DNA from: Methanobacteriota archaeon
GTDB taxonomy: Archaea > Thermoplasmatota > Poseidoniia > Poseidoniales > Poseidoniaceae
DNA length: 64,000 nt
Direction of reading: 5' to 3'
Assembly: GCA_018691345.1 (NCBI GenBank)
Contig: JABGTJ010000016.1
Coordinates: forward strand, 125 to 64,124
Below, piece by piece: positions 34,980-46,655 of this stretch. Both the position numbers and the translations under genes were made by a program. Position 1 is the first letter of the stretch; every line of letters starts with the position of its first letter. Below the pieces are notes generated by a model. That model made no database searches and had not been told where the DNA came from. It saw nothing but the letters and a program-made list of their open reading frames with translations.

Positions 34980-35432
34980 TTACCATTCTTCAGGTATTTC
35001 AAGCGGTGAAAATAATTGCCCTGGGCTTTTAGCATTGGAAAGTTGAGTGCGCGAAAGCGCCTCCCAAGGCCGTAAAGCGATCAAACCTTCCGCTAATGAT
35101 GCATCGATTTCGACCAGCGTAACTCGAATAAGCGTTGCTAAAATATCCATTCGGTCTTCATCTATGATTTTGAAGACTTTCTCCAAATCAAACTGGAATC
35201 CGGATTCATCTTCATCAGCGGTATGAATCGGCCACGGATGGGTGACGGTTTCTGGGAACTCTTGTTGAGTTGCCGTTATGTGTTCATCAAGCGAACGAGA
35301 CAGTCCCGCAATATGCTTGCTAAGAACAAGACTGACTTCAATGAGGGGCATGTTGAGCTGATTGATTAAATTCACCATCCGTTCTTGCAGGGTCACCATC
35401 CCCGCAACAGCCGAATTGTTTCCATCGGACAT
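34980..35432 (-). CDS. Small cytoplasmic hypothetical protein, 10 nt downstream of the giant gene
   Basis: 150 aa with no TM or signal sequence. Acidic, ending PLEIPEEW. Co-directional with the flanking genes and tightly spaced. Confidence 0.55.
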   Translation of the reverse strand: MSDGNNSAVAGMVTLQERMVNLINQLNMPLIEVSLVLSKHIAGLSRSLDEHITATQQEFPETVTHPWPIHTADEDESGFQFDLEKVFKIIDEDRMDILATLIRVTLVEIDASLAEGLIALRPWEALSRTQLSNAKSPGQLFSPLEIPEEW

Positions 35433-35441
35433 GTCAGCAAC

Positions 35442-43900: not shown

Positions 43901-46655
43901 TGGGGTCCAAGGTCCAATTGTTGCCTCCTGTAAACGAGGAACCGATCCATCTTCTGTGCTCAATCTCCCATCCATCTGGCATTCCGTCCCCGTCACTGTC
44001 GAAATTGGTAGGGTCAGTTCCACGGTCGCTGCTTGACAATCCGAGATAGGTCGCATTGGCAGCCTGACCTGCTGCATCATCGCAAATGTACTCCATTTGG
44101 ACAGAGTAATGGCACCAAAGGTTGGATGTTTCATAGAAGAATCCGAAGTATTCGCTTCCATCACCTAATCCATCACCATCGGTGTCACCAACTTTCGGAT
44201 TGGTTGAGTTGTAGCCGTTCAAAGACTGAGATACAAATCTGTATTCGTCGAGGTTGGTCCAAAGCCGTTCAAGGAATCCGTCGTCGGCTTGGTCAAGATC
44301 AAGGCCGTCGCTGTCTGCATCGAACAGAGAATCCCACGGATCGGTTGGATCAAGGCCATTAGCGACCTCCCACCCATCGGGCATTCCGTCGTTATCAGAA
44401 TCATTAGCTCCTGGGTTGATGAGCTCGATGTTTGCATATTTCCCAGGTGAAGAACCGGTCAAAACGGTTGTGTTACCGTCGAGTAAAAGCGATTGAATCG
44501 TCACAATTTCACCATAAATGGTTTCTTGCCCTTGGTAGCCATAAACAGCAGAATAATCTCCAGAAATAGCCCACATGCCTTTGATTGAACCGACCAAGAT
44601 TTCGTCACCGGTCACGTGTAAAGAGTGGATGTTGTTGTATTCTCGCGTATATCTGCCCTCAACACCGGGATGCTCCAATAGACCGCTGTGAGAAATGGAA
44701 TTCTCTACTAAATTCAACATGTGAACTCCAGCAGGAGTTCCAAACCATAAGACTTGAGCATTTGCCGAGTTTGGACCATCGAGAATCATCGTTCGAACCT
44801 CAGCAGGATTTGCGACCATTCCTAACGAGAGTGAGCGCAGTTCATCGATGGAAGTTGGGAAAGGAGTGGTTTCGGGGGTATAGTAAAATCTCCAATTTGG
44901 TTCAAACTCATCCCGAGCAGTCGTAGTTTCTGCAGTAAGTAGACCTCGGTCCGTTCCAACAAAGAGCATGTTTGCGCCACCGCCTGCTGGACCGTGAGCT
45001 AATTCAGTAACCGATGCATTCGATTGACGCAGAGCAGTCTCTAAATTTTCTGAAATTGGATTTTGTTCTATGATCTCACCCGACGAAGAAACTTCGAAAA
45101 CCGAACCATCACCGGCATTACCCAATCCGAGTAAGAGTGTGTTTTGACCGTCGATGTTGAGCATGGTGAGAGCAGAAATCTCGCTGGAAAGCGACCAAGA
45201 CCACGTGCTCAAAGGCCCAAGATTCCCATCAGCTTGGAGTGGTGCTACAGCAAGACCTGCGCTGGTTGCAACTGCAAGTGCGAAGATGGAATCATCTTGA
45301 GAAAGGAGTAACGATGAATGTAATTCGATTCCCTCCGGCATCCAGTGGTCGTAACTTACCATTTGCTCATAATCAAAGACGGTAAGGCCGTATTTCGTAG
45401 TTGCATAAACATGTAAATTATCTGTATCTAAATCGCGTAAGTCATAATGAATCAAACTCATCTCATCGGCAGGGGCGTCAAAACTGAGAGGCATGTATTC
45501 AACGCTGTCATCCTGCGTACCAAGTAAGGCCGTTTTCATACCCGGGAGGACAGAGTTACCGTTATCGTTGTGAACAAAATATTCCTCGAGCGTAGAGAGC
45601 GATTCACCAAGAGCCAGTGCGGTTAATGTTCGACTGACGTCCGGCGATACGCCCCCATCACGGTTCGCGTCCCAACCGTCGTTGTCTGGATCGAGCAAAG
45701 CATTTGTTCGATTCAGAGGTTCAAGGCCAAAATGGACTTCCCAGCCGTCCGGGATTCCATCACCGAAAGAAGGGAACAAGCGACGGATAGAGAACCCGTC
45801 CCAATGGTAACGGTCCGAGTCGGCAAGCAGTGGGTCGGTGCCGAGCCAAATATCTTCATCGATGACCATGGTTGCGTTTTCAGTGCACGCAGAAAGTAGA
45901 TTTTGGAATGTCGCATTGGCTCCAGTTGGAATGAACGGCCAGTTTTCAAAGACTGAACCTTCTGGCAATGTGGCTGAGCACCAAAGTCCATCCAGTTCAT
46001 TTGTGTGGTTTACAGGTGCTCCTTGGATGTATTCTTCAGGCGAAGAAAATCGTTCCGTTATTGACAGAACTCCATCTCGATTTACGTCGAAACCGTCTTC
46101 ATCAGGGTCGTCGTACAAATCCGAAGCATTGAGAGGGTCAAAGGTATTGCATTCATACTTGAACGTAAATACATTGTAGCCACCAACACGTTCACACATG
46201 TAGGCTTCGTATCCATCAGGCATTCCGTCGCCATCGGTGTCTGCGATTCGAGGGTCGAGGTATGAGCGCTCTCCTTCACCATCCACCGTACCAGTGAGTC
46301 CACGGGGGAACCCGGGTGCTGTACAATTCGCCGGATAAGGCCAACAATATTCTTCTGTAGCATTCAAGCCGTCTTTATCAAGATCAAACAATGCATCTGA
46401 CGCATCGTTACTGTCCAATCCTTCAATCGAAACAGCGCGGCCATCGATGGCACTCCAATTCATCCATTCCTCGAACAGATTTTCGTGGACGTCTGGGATT
46501 TTATCTCCATCGGTATCCGTTGAAGGAGGCTTGGAGCCATCGGTCGTATCCGGATGAAGGTTTGAGACCGAAGACACAGCAGGAAATTGGGACATGAAAA
46601 GCAAACTTGCAACAACAGCAAGGGTGGTTAGAAGAGTGGTTATACTTCGTCGCAT
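40902..46655 (-). CDS. Giant secreted protein with more than 20 thrombospondin type-3-like Ca-binding repeats flanking a beta-propeller-like region
   Basis: 1917 aa with signal peptide MRRSITTLLTTLAVVASLLF. Recurrent DxDxDGxxDxxE units include DTDGDGMPDGYE, DSDNDGMPDGWE, DSDGDGMPDGWE, DSDGDSLPDGWE, DSDADGMPDGWE, DTDGDGMIDGIE, DTDDDGMYDGFE and DSDSDGIEDGWE. Residues ~400-760 have propeller-blade-like motifs (VYATTKYGLTVFD, LFVGTDRGLLTAE, LWFGTPAGVHMLN, ILVGSIKGMWAISG). There is no C-terminal TM helix. Confidence 0.85.
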   Translation of the reverse strand: MRRSITTLLTTLAVVASLLFMSQFPAVSSVSNLHPDTTDGSKPPSTDTDGDKIPDVHENLFEEWMNWSAIDGRAVSIEGLDSNDASDALFDLDKDGLNATEEYCWPYPANCTAPGFPRGLTGTVDGEGERSYLDPRIADTDGDGMPDGYEAYMCERVGGYNVFTFKYECNTFDPLNASDLYDDPDEDGFDVNRDGVLSITERFSSPEEYIQGAPVNHTNELDGLWCSATLPEGSVFENWPFIPTGANATFQNLLSACTENATMVIDEDIWLGTDPLLADSDRYHWDGFSIRRLFPSFGDGIPDGWEVHFGLEPLNRTNALLDPDNDGWDANRDGGVSPDVSRTLTALALGESLSTLEEYFVHNDNGNSVLPGMKTALLGTQDDSVEYMPLSFDAPADEMSLIHYDLRDLDTDNLHVYATTKYGLTVFDYEQMVSYDHWMPEGIELHSSLLLSQDDSIFALAVATSAGLAVAPLQADGNLGPLSTWSWSLSSEISALTMLNIDGQNTLLLGLGNAGDGSVFEVSSSGEIIEQNPISENLETALRQSNASVTELAHGPAGGGANMLFVGTDRGLLTAETTTARDEFEPNWRFYYTPETTPFPTSIDELRSLSLGMVANPAEVRTMILDGPNSANAQVLWFGTPAGVHMLNLVENSISHSGLLEHPGVEGRYTREYNNIHSLHVTGDEILVGSIKGMWAISGDYSAVYGYQGQETIYGEIVTIQSLLLDGNTTVLTGSSPGKYANIELINPGANDSDNDGMPDGWEVANGLDPTDPWDSLFDADSDGLDLDQADDGFLERLWTNLDEYRFVSQSLNGYNSTNPKVGDTDGDGLGDGSEYFGFFYETSNLWCHYSVQMEYICDDAAGQAANATYLGLSSSDRGTDPTNFDSDGDGMPDGWEIEHRRWIGSSFTGGNNWTLDPNRAADANWDADRDGLPNLCEYQWSVVRSAAVDGLLYESHGESINASLEWFEADPNNIDSDGDSLPDGWESGGSCTWDPSRQGVNPLNASDLFQNPDGDGYDINHNGILEENEEFVNYLEFHVRSDLFNGNQTFGGEALPNGFSTDLFTNISLNGAPEASFGDRASGSVTALQSITSIGSSNPLNADSDADGMPDGWEIWFARWNILDDAWTLNPLDSSDRWQDADDDGMANWEEYNSIAPEYSETDQNRSSPQWFVTTVGSAFALQQWPGNSVEYSFGSFIESDQINLSGWTSDPNNVDTDGDGMIDGIEQLFTSWNISAGRWTLNPLVAGDGLFDGDGDGLTDSQEFAIAVENPENGVEHPSDAPLLHLDGDVQQPTEKAQRVFNMLITKETRGKRLLTDFNDWQAGVPPNAILSTLLGMSDPTNPDTDDDGMYDGFEYWFTEWDLEENRWSMNPLIDSDVNLDTDGDSFDCDGDGNISVDERFSNLREWESRTYGKYSERFSVPPSAGLIDFGEDAIQAYTEELGFTSAQAQQALYIDFASKNQESTDRMLMINEFNEENFNRTLLGIADPTSTDSDSDGIEDGWEYCYALYGMDDPTTINHWASNPLNPWDVNYDGDHDGWYDRSAFDQPAEQGTWSSRVFTPNSAIVQSGFGDLPFTNWMEWDNQTRPDLNDSDGDSVSYTTVVSNGQVVLHEQDFNLSDGREVFKYGINPSDNDSDGDMLPDWYEYAKAWNEDNDNYSTFMQIRVVWIDAATGGACTTDTNSCLPLSQQGVDGVLSRPDLSFTWFTMNPADPLDANFDPDQDGNWDCTGAGCVYEPYTNFQEFYAITTPDLSSPNAVRLSGLIYDGEIVLEWWQLRAAMLKLDASGASNENYLKMDKSFGNDIRFAYIVDDKDTNFLLLDSGDDEVLLAGNRTDAWEIYYVGSPNTAPVRSVGEHEFGWYLLDYDNDHIAEGTDPTNWDSDGDWMVDWFEVHDDEEDGVRGDSSPLRYDSRQTG

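What the first reader, a model, noticed from the sequence alone, without database searches (positions are those of the whole stretch)
34980..46655. Two giant genes, a small cytoplasmic protein and a zincin lipoprotein arranged as one co-directional unit
The gaps between these genes are 46-66 nt, 10 nt and 37 nt, all on the minus strand.

The first giant has no membrane anchor and more than 20 Ca-binding TSP3-like repeats. The second is anchored and carries the conserved tail.

The 150-aa protein that follows has no signal sequence and ends in EIPEEW. Its position right after the tailed giant makes it a candidate tail-binding or chaperone partner.

A possible arrangement is a secreted Ca-dependent scaffold docking onto an anchored partner, with a dedicated metalloprotease. 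That is speculative.
Basis: inference. Interest (0 to 1): 0.6.

Follow-up and report, generated by a model that had tools for sequence, protein, structure and literature searches.

The report
Conserved giant surface-protein locus of MGII archaea

Summary
The four co-directional minus-strand genes exist as described. The window comes from a Poseidoniaceae (Marine Group IIa) genome.

Comparative genomics splits the unit into layers.
- giantA (secreted, about 23-25 DxDxDG calcium loops) is a single-copy core gene of the order. It is found in 150/151 genomes at near-constant length, is absent from the sister order, and is preceded by a unique 30-nt cis element.
- giantB (propeller plus beta-sandwich ectodomain, one TM, cytoplasmic tail) is present in only 94/151 genomes.
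- The 150-aa protein is an orphan all-alpha family confined to the order (69/71). It always starts 3-70 nt after whichever giant precedes it. It persists where giantB is lost and is missing in one genus that keeps both giants and the tails.
- The giantB tail is one of 11 copies of an order-wide tail tag, and giantB orthologues in other families carry different tails.
- The zincin lipoprotein belongs to a phylum-wide family. It is absent from all Thalassarchaeaceae sampled but present in MGIII, which lacks the giants.
- Conserved promoter-like blocks precede giantB and the zincin.

Verdict: this is a real, conserved, undescribed surface locus. The tail-binder idea and the dedicated-protease idea are not supported. 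Docking of giantA on giantB could not be tested.

The parts
46711..46740 (-). Order-wide unique cis element GTCCGAAC-N4-CTCCATCA-N4-[CGT]ATAAG. Its 3' end lies 55 nt upstream of the giantA ATG. It is a likely promoter or regulator site of the locus.
   Evidence: It is present in all 18 aligned MBL-giantA spacers from three families. It occurs once in the window's own genome. The exact pattern occurs once per genome in 75/151 Poseidoniales, against 1 hit for the reversed control. The variable positions show no hairpin covariation.
40902..46655 (-). giantA: 1917-aa Sec-type secreted protein with about 23-25 DxDxDG (TSP3-like) calcium loops, no anchor, 29 N-glycosylation sequons, pI 4.05.
   Evidence: Sequence and motifs. 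It is a single-copy core gene in 150/151 Poseidoniales, 58/58 high-quality genomes, and aligns over residues 1-1916 in most full-length cases. In MGIII only repeat-level hits were found.
40866..40884 (-). Conserved block GGGGTATAATTCAAAGGCC in the giantA-giantB spacer, about 40 nt upstream of the giantB ATG. It is a candidate internal promoter.
   Evidence: Phylogenetic footprint across Poseidoniaceae loci whose proteins are 55-95% identical. TTCAAA is positionally enriched 20-50 nt upstream of start codons genome-wide.
35442..40835 (-). giantB: type I membrane protein (1797 aa from the conserved ATG; the ORF opens at GTG 40856). It has an all-beta ectodomain, two conserved Asp-box motifs, one TM and a cytoplasmic tail.
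   Evidence: Sequence and TM. AF2 model of residues 1-1200: mean pLDDT 79.7, all-beta. Foldseek matches mastigoneme, CD109/alpha-2-macroglobulin, integrin alpha and a 6-bladed propeller. Present in 94/151 genomes. The Asp-box residues D504/G506/W509 and D592/G594/W597 are invariant.
35445..35534 (-). Tail tag of giantB (last 30 residues, ...PPLPPTGLPEGWTLDQWNHFGWQYVESMKK). It is one copy of the order-specific cytoplasmic tail motif.
   Evidence: 11 ORFs in the window's own genome carry it. It is found in 71/71 Poseidoniales sampled (7-11 copies in Poseidoniaceae, 1-7 in Thalassarchaeaceae) and in 0/230 other Thermoplasmatota. It has no Pfam match.
34980..35432 (-). small150: orphan acidic all-alpha cytoplasmic protein that starts 9 nt after the giantB stop.
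   Evidence: AF2 pLDDT 86, pTM 0.80, helical. No PDB fold match with E below 5. No Pfam, NCBIfam or PDB sequence match. Only 134 relatives among 1.84 billion representative proteins, none showing a clear fusion to another domain. Found in 69/71 Poseidoniales and 0/230 genomes outside the order.
34961..34978 (-). Conserved block CAATGGTTTGAAAATAAC in the small150-zincin spacer. The TTTGAAA core starts about 29 nt upstream of the zincin ATG. It is a candidate zincin promoter.
   Evidence: The block is conserved across most of the 81 loci compared, while the flanking spacer varies.
34152..34943 (-). Zincin lipoprotein (lipobox LSGC, HEVGHLLGL, SVMY Met-turn-like). It is a Poseidoniaceae-only addition to the locus.
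   Evidence: Sequence and weak Pfam hits. Phylum-wide distribution that does not track the giants. A few sources name relatives 'predicted Zn-dependent protease with MMP-like domain'.
33757..34155 (+). Convergent small membrane-protein gene that closes the directon. It is conserved at this position across the order.
   Evidence: In families f2 and f3 it directly follows small150, or giantB in genus g17.

Best explanation
This is the Poseidoniaceae version of an order-specific, vertically inherited cell-surface locus of Marine Group II archaea (Poseidoniales). It is layered, not a fixed four-part machine.

1. giantA is the constant core. It is exported by Sec through an N-terminal signal. Outside the cell its roughly 23-25 acidic DxDxDG loops bind seawater Ca2+ and stiffen a long repeat scaffold around a propeller-like core. 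It is transcribed from a dedicated promoter region marked by a unique 30-nt element.

2. giantB is an optional, integrin-like companion. It has a propeller and beta-sandwich ectodomain on a single TM helix. In Poseidoniaceae its cytoplasmic end carries the order's common tail tag. It may hold or cooperate with giantA at the surface, but many lineages do without it.

3. small150 stays in the cytoplasm and is translated from the same mRNA as the giant in front of it. It is most likely an accessory factor for making, targeting or regulating that giant, mainly giantA. It is not a reader of the giantB tail.

4. The zincin lipoprotein is a member of an old Thermoplasmatota family. It was placed here only in Poseidoniaceae and probably has its own promoter. 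It is a neighbour that may trim surface proteins in general.

Shown: anatomy, phyletic patterns, tight spacing, conserved non-coding blocks, folds.

Inferred: export route, Ca binding, co-transcription, and any role of small150.
For: - Whole-locus synteny holds across three families and 80 Poseidoniaceae loci.
- giantA is in 150/151 genomes at constant length and absent in MGIII. Between families it is 43-47% identical, comparable with DnaJ at 46-50%.
- The cis element is unique and conserved.
- giantB is in 94/151 genomes.
- small150 follows whichever giant is present, at 3-70 nt. It is confined to the order and its predicted fold has no match among solved structures.
- The tail tag is on 11 proteins in this genome and is order-wide.
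- The zincin distribution is independent of the giants.
- Conserved promoter-like blocks sit in the A-B and small-zincin spacers.
- The giantB ectodomain fold is all-beta with propeller and beta-sandwich matches.
- Rinke et al. 2019 (PMC6461757) report 'thrombospondin' genes as widespread in the order and read them as adhesion genes.
Against: - Operon structure therefore rests on spacing and footprints.
- The whole 20-kb neighbourhood, including DnaJ and a glycosyltransferase, is syntenic. Gene order alone does not prove a functional link.
- small150 is lost in genus g17 although both giants remain, so it is not essential for them.
- The promoter reading of the TTCAAA-type blocks rests on a modest genome-wide positional enrichment.
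- No interaction was tested.
Confidence: 0.55

Rival explanations
1. small150 is a dedicated binder or chaperone of the giantB cytoplasmic tail. giantA docks on giantB. The zincin is their dedicated protease.
For: - The gap between giantB and small150 is 9 nt.
- The tail tag and small150 are both order-specific inventions. The tag is in 71/71 genomes and small150 in 69/71.
- The four-gene order is fixed in Poseidoniaceae.
Against: - small150 is kept without giantB in many genera.
- Genus g17 has giantB and the tails but no small150.
- giantB tails differ between families while small150 is conserved.
- There are 11 tail-bearing proteins and one small gene.
- The zincin is absent from the 23 Thalassarchaeaceae sampled and present in MGIII, which lacks the giants.
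Confidence: 0.08
2. Two-component coat. giantA is the outer, unanchored lattice protein and giantB its membrane stalk, like SlaA and SlaB of Sulfolobales. The locus would then encode the so far unknown S-layer of Marine Group II.
For: - giantA is universal, single-copy, constant in length, slowly evolving, acidic and rich in glycosylation sequons.
- A secreted protein and an anchored protein are encoded in tandem.
- giantA has a unique, strongly conserved upstream element.
Against: - giantB is missing in 38% of genomes.
- Codon bias of giantA and giantB is average: ENC 53.5 and 52.5, ranks 517 and 362 of 1175. The lowest-ENC genes look, from their N-terminal sequences, like ATPase subunits, RNA polymerase and an archaellin-like protein; they were not annotated with any tool.
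- No lattice-forming fold or SlaA/SlaB similarity was found.
Confidence: 0.15
3. Neighbours by descent only. The four genes have no joint function. small150 is an unrelated cytoplasmic housekeeping protein that merely shares a transcript, and gene order is frozen as in the rest of this syntenic region.
For: - The entire MBL-to-DnaJ block keeps its order across the order.
- Each of giantB, small150 and the zincin can be lost independently.
- small150 has no export signal and no recognisable domain.
Against: - The tight spacing of small150 to a giant gene is maintained over order-level divergence, even after giantB deletion.
- small150 and giantA share exactly the same order-restricted distribution.
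Confidence: 0.2

Closest known systems
SlaA/SlaB two-component S-layer operon of Sulfolobales
   Same: A large secreted protein without an anchor is encoded next to a membrane-anchored partner. Both are acidic and have many glycosylation sequons. The genes are co-directional.
   Different: No sequence or fold similarity was found. giantB is as large as giantA and is dispensable in 38% of genomes. Codon bias is average. A small cytoplasmic gene is attached.
Bacterial TSP3-repeat surface proteins (Pfam TSP3_bac; Myxococcus CglD and MtsD)
   Same: Tandem DxDxDGxxDxxE calcium-binding loops in an extracellular adhesion-type protein.
   Different: Only repeat-level similarity: CglD 35 bits against a cut-off of 400, MtsD 24.8 against 800, TSP3_bac 23.1 against 25. 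The host is an archaeon, and the architecture is a constant 1917 aa.
Integrin alpha-chain-like ectodomains and the Chlamydomonas mastigoneme protein Mst1
   Same: giantB combines a propeller-like head and serial beta-sandwich domains with a single TM and a short conserved cytoplasmic tail.
   Different: TM-scores are low (0.1-0.2 over the multi-domain model). There is no sequence homology and no beta-subunit counterpart.
Prokaryotic C-terminal sorting tags (PGF-CTERM/archaeosortase, LPXTG/sortase)
   Same: One short conserved C-terminal motif is shared by many unrelated surface proteins of a lineage.
   Different: The tag here lies about 60 residues beyond the TM helix, on the cytoplasmic side. 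It is not a cleavable TM-plus-basic tail, and no sortase-type partner is known.
Small acidic helical export chaperones encoded next to their substrates (flagellar FliS/FliT, type III secretion chaperones)
   Same: small150 is small, acidic, all-alpha, cytoplasmic and encoded directly after a giant exported protein.
   Different: There is no fold match: the FliT complex ranks 12th with E = 9.6. Archaeal giants carry Sec signals. small150 is dispensable in genus g17.
LapA / LapG adhesin-protease pairs of Pseudomonas
   Same: A giant calcium-binding adhesin has a protease gene close by.
   Different: LapG is a cysteine protease that tracks its adhesin. The zincin here is a phylum-wide HExxH lipoprotein whose distribution does not follow the giants.

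Membership tests
TSP3 (thrombospondin type 3-like) calcium-binding repeat proteins | Tandem DxDxDGxxDxxE/D loops | tested here: met
   11 strict and 25 [DN]xDxDG matches in giantA, none in giantB.
TSP3 (thrombospondin type 3-like) calcium-binding repeat proteins | Pfam TSP3_bac at or above the gathering score | tested here: inconclusive
   23.1 bits against a cut-off of 25, E = 6.6e-05, 3 stretches.
Myxococcus CglD / MtsD equivalogs | NCBIfam score above the curated cut-off | tested here: not met
   35 against 400 bits, and 24.8 against 800 bits.
Zincin metallopeptidases | HExxH zinc-binding motif | tested here: met
   HEVGH in P0004.
Metzincins (M10-like) | Extended HExxHxxGxxH motif with a third His, plus a Met-turn | tested here: not met
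   The motif reads HEVGHLLGLVN, with Asn where the third His is expected. A Met-turn-like SVMY is present. Peptidase_M10 scores 20.2 bits against a cut-off of 24.
Archaeal/bacterial lipoproteins | Signal helix followed by a lipobox [LVI][ASTVI][GAS]C | tested here: met
   ...LLLTPALSGC at residues 14-23 of P0004. Lipid modification itself was not tested.
Single operon (one transcript for all four genes) | Continuous transcript across all three junctions, with no internal starts | not testable with these tools
Indirect evidence: the 9-nt giantB-small150 gap leaves no room for a promoter, while conserved promoter-like blocks lie in the other two gaps. None of the junctions has a run of 5 or more T.
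Poseidoniales cytoplasmic tail tag | TM helix, then a Pro-rich linker, then PPLPxxGLPxGW[TS]xxQWxxYGxxY at the C-terminus | tested here: met
   giantB scores 49.7 bits against a profile built from the 11 genomic copies, giantB's own tail included, so the match is partly by construction.
SlaA/SlaB-type two-component S-layer | An obligatory pair of outer lattice protein and membrane stalk, with very high expression | tested here: not met
   giantB is absent in 57/151 genomes. ENC of both giants is average. Lattice formation is not testable here.
Substrate-specific secretion chaperones | Structural similarity to a known chaperone fold and binding to the adjacent substrate | tested here: not met
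   No Foldseek match with E below 5. Binding is not testable here.

The most novel reading that the evidence does not exclude
small150 is the missing cytoplasmic adaptor of the Poseidoniales tail tag. Both are inventions of the same order. The one small protein would dock all 7-11 tail-bearing giant proteases and adhesins of a cell to a common internal scaffold. Its position after giantB would be the ancestral trace of that link.
Probability: 0.08. Interest if true: 0.75.

Novelty: new variant of a known kind. Interest (0 to 1): 0.45.

Why it matters
Poseidoniales are the most abundant archaea of the surface ocean and have never been cultured. Nothing is known experimentally about their cell envelope.

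This locus holds a 1,917-residue secreted protein that every member of the order keeps in single copy and at constant length, behind a unique regulatory element. It also holds an orphan small protein whose predicted fold matches no solved structure.

That makes the locus a concrete handle on how these cells build or use their surface, for example particle attachment, coat formation or grazing and virus interactions. It also yields a very specific marker of the lineage.

The work also removes a tempting but unsupported candidate for the partner of the order-wide cytoplasmic tail tag.

Tried and rejected
- Family and structure look-ups for giantB and small150: Pfam, NCBIfam and PDB sequence searches gave nothing.
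- Foldseek of the small150 model: no hit with E below 5.
- Deep profile search for fusions of small150: only about 150-aa proteins, fragments and a few 212-284 aa hits covering part of the profile, which were not examined and may be miscalled frames.
- Hairpin or riboswitch reading of the giantA upstream element: rejected, because the variable 4-nt blocks do not covary.
- Rfam and tRNA scans of the window: empty.
- Classical TATA scan relative to start codons: the signal was weak. Only TTCAAA-type hexamers show a modest peak 20-50 nt upstream, so promoter calls stay tentative.
- Polymorphic toxin plus immunity reading (giant plus small downstream gene): rejected. The giantA C-terminus and small150 are both conserved and single-copy, not hypervariable.
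- Free EEVD-like C-terminal peptide on small150: unlikely, because AF2 gives the last 20 residues high confidence (pLDDT 87-89), as for an ordered segment.
- Reading giantB-TGA-small150 as one in-frame product: the 9-nt gap is in frame here but is 10-11 nt in relatives, so read-through is not conserved.
- Literature: no paper on this locus was found. There is only the general remark on thrombospondin genes.

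
Full report
**Observation**

ORF listing and translation confirm four consecutive minus-strand genes:
- giantA, 40902-46655, 1917 aa
- giantB, 35442-40856, 1804 aa from a GTG
- small150, 34980-35432, 150 aa
- a zincin lipoprotein, 34152-34943, 263 aa

Alignment of the giantA-giantB spacer in relatives shows that the conserved giantB start is the ATG at 40835. The gaps are therefore 66 nt (45 nt from the GTG), 9 nt and 36 nt.

The individual features also check out.
- giantA has an N-terminal signal-type helix, no C-terminal TM and 25 [DN]xDxDG hits, of which 11 are strict DxDxDGxxDxxE. 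It scores just under the Pfam TSP3_bac cut-off.
- giantB has an N-terminal signal, a TM at residues 1687-1712 and a 92-residue tail.
- small150 has no hydrophobic segment and ends EIPEEW.
- The zincin has an LSGC lipobox and HEVGH.

The run is bounded upstream by a divergent metallo-beta-lactamase gene. Downstream, a convergent small membrane-protein gene overlaps the zincin stop.

**Organism and conservation**

Neighbouring genes carry archaeal pilin N-terminal domains. Related records are Candidatus Poseidoniaceae / Poseidoniales MAGs.

In 80 loci from species-representative genomes, all Poseidoniaceae, every locus whose contig reaches the genes concerned shows the same order: giantA - giantB - small150 - zincin - pyroglutamyl-peptidase/Nudix - orf210 - GT2 - orf330 - DnaJ.

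The same backbone holds in two further families of the order. Gene order is thus conserved, but so is the whole 20-kb neighbourhood. Synteny alone therefore does not single out the four genes.

**Layering by phyletic pattern**

| Gene | Distribution |
|---|---|
| giantA | 150/151 Poseidoniales, 58/58 high-quality genomes, single copy; most full-length matches align over residues 1-1916 in open frames of about 1,900-2,000 aa; only repeat-level hits in the sister order MGIII |
| giantB | 94/151: 70/75 Poseidoniaceae, both f2 genomes, a minority of Thalassarchaeaceae genera |
| small150 | 69/71 Poseidoniales, 0/8 MGIII, 0/222 other Thermoplasmatota |
| zincin family | 46/47 Poseidoniaceae, 0 of the 23 Thalassarchaeaceae sampled, 7/8 MGIII, dozens of other Thermoplasmatota |

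- A profile search of 1.84 billion representative proteins finds only 134 relatives of small150. They are about 150 aa long or fragments, and none shows a clear fusion to another domain.
- Between families giantA is 43-47% identical. This is like DnaJ (46-50%) and better than the pilin-like neighbours (30-37%).
- The four genes therefore have four different evolutionary histories. Only giantA and small150 share one, being order-specific and near-universal.

**small150 and the tail**

- In every lineage small150 starts 3-70 nt after the stop of the preceding giant.
  - In Poseidoniaceae the gap to giantB is 9-11 nt, often with GAGGTG overlapping the stop.
  - In the five loci examined that lack giantB, the gap to giantA is 19-70 nt.
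- Genus g17 has giantA and giantB followed directly by the convergent membrane gene. It has no small150 anywhere in two genomes, yet it has 3-4 tail-tag proteins.
- The tail tag (GPPLPxxGLPxGWTxEQWxxYGQQYL) is on 11 ORFs of this genome.
  - It is found in 71/71 Poseidoniales and 0/230 genomes outside the order.
  - It has no Pfam match.
- giantB orthologues of Thalassarchaeaceae end instead in a GWTxEQ(V/I)xxW variant plus an EF-hand-like domain. Those of family f2 end in a proline-rich tail.

So small150 does not track giantB, its tail type or the tail tag. This argues against the proposed tail-binding role.

AF2 predicts small150 confidently as an all-helical protein (pLDDT 86, pTM 0.80), with the conserved C-terminal peptide also at high confidence (pLDDT 87-89). 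Foldseek finds no solved relative.

**Non-coding signals**

Three conserved blocks were found.
1. Upstream of giantA lies a 30-nt element, GTCCGAAC-N4-CTCCATCA-N4-[CGT]ATAAG, at 46740-46711 on the minus strand.
   - It is present in all 18 aligned spacers from three families.
   - It occurs once in this genome.
   - The exact pattern occurs once per genome in 75/151 genomes, against one hit for the reversed control.
   - Its variable positions do not covary, so it is more likely a protein-binding or promoter element than an RNA hairpin.
2. The giantA-giantB spacer keeps ...GTATAATTCAAAGGCC... about 40 nt before the giantB ATG.
3. The small150-zincin spacer keeps CAATGG(G)TTTGAAAATA. Its TTTGAAA core starts about 29 nt before the zincin ATG.

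TTCAAA hexamers are enriched 20-50 nt upstream of start codons genome-wide: 22, 19 and 21 per 10-nt bin, against 4-12 elsewhere. A similar TTCAAAGGCC lies about 30 nt upstream of the divergent MBL gene. I read these as candidate promoters.

On that reading the likely units are giantA, then giantB-small150, then the zincin, with read-through possible. No junction has an oligo-T run of five or more.

**What the giants look like**

An AF2 model of giantB residues 1-1200, built from 38 orthologues, has mean pLDDT 79.7 and is entirely beta. Foldseek matches fall into two groups:
- multi-domain beta-sandwich or propeller ectodomains: Chlamydomonas mastigoneme, CD109/alpha-2-macroglobulin/complement C3, integrin alpha
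- a six-bladed propeller

All of these have low global TM-scores. Two Asp-box motifs are invariant. No catalytic family was detected.

Rinke et al. 2019 (PMC6461757) report thrombospondin genes as widespread in the order and read them as adhesion genes. No paper found describes this locus.

**Explanation and rivals**

Best reading (0.55): a layered, order-specific surface locus.
- giantA is the constant, Sec-exported, Ca-binding component under a dedicated control element.
- giantB is an optional integrin-like anchored companion.
- small150 is a co-translated cytoplasmic accessory factor of the giant in front of it.
- The zincin is an independently evolving neighbour.

Rivals:
- A SlaA/SlaB-like two-component coat (0.15). 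It is weakened by the frequent loss of giantB and by average codon bias: ENC 53.5 and 52.5, ranks 517 and 362 of 1175. The lowest-ENC genes appear from their N-terminal sequences to be ATPase subunits, RNA polymerase and an archaellin-like protein, but they were not annotated with any tool.
- Pure neighbourhood without joint function (0.2). This fits the independent losses but not the maintained tight spacing.

**Novelty**

The locus, the small150 family and the upstream element are not in Pfam, NCBIfam, Rfam or the papers searched. Earlier notes of this scan had already picked up the tail tag, and the same operon in another genome.

In kind this is a lineage-specific surface-protein gene cluster, so I class it as a new variant of a known kind. 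Interest is moderate. It offers a concrete entry point to the envelope of an uncultured, globally abundant archaeal order, but no mechanism is demonstrated.

Noticed in passing
window 46711-46740 (minus strand): A 30-nt element, GTCCGAAC-N4-CTCCATCA-N4-[CGT]ATAAG, lies upstream of giantA. It is unique in the genome and conserved across the whole order. The 9-bp palindrome at 46782-46801 flagged by another first-stage note is not conserved in relatives.
   Followed up: partly
window 33757-34155 (+): A small membrane-protein gene (core ...VIWxELTGGVGAWGALRPL...WSIFDAYQ...) sits convergent to the locus in every family of the order. It has no Pfam match.
   Followed up: partly
window 51523-54081 (-): A wHTH-STAND-TPR protein stays next to the MBL/giantA region in all three families, including genomes that lack the pilin trio. 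It is a candidate regulator of the locus.
   Followed up: no
L026, L027, L030, L034, L121, L122 (giantB 3' ends): Thalassarchaeaceae giantB orthologues carry, on the cytoplasmic side, a GWTxEQ(V/I)xxW motif plus an EF-hand-like FDxDGNxYLxxxELExAA segment instead of the canonical tail tag.
   Followed up: partly
own genome, e.g. C86:5643-10904, C77:49-4941, C66:2554-8445: Other giant ORFs end in looser GW[ST]xx[QE]-type motifs (for example LPSGWTNEQYQIWLEGEMPDGWTLSQW and DQGWPMDELAAYY). The tail tag may belong to a wider family of cytoplasmic GW motifs.
   Followed up: no
many relatives' contigs: In many MAGs small150 lies 34-37 kb from a contig end, as it does in this contig. This points to a recurrent assembly breakpoint, a repeat or a hypervariable island, just beyond the window's left end.
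   Followed up: no
relatives, e.g. G289:C8:121898-126316, G367:C63:35626-38892: A distant paralogue of giantB (25-27% identity, about 1,690 aa) is encoded elsewhere in many Poseidoniales genomes.
   Followed up: no
window 32686-33804 (-): The pyroglutamyl-peptidase/Nudix fusion downstream of the locus is conserved across all three families (30-83% identity).
   Followed up: no
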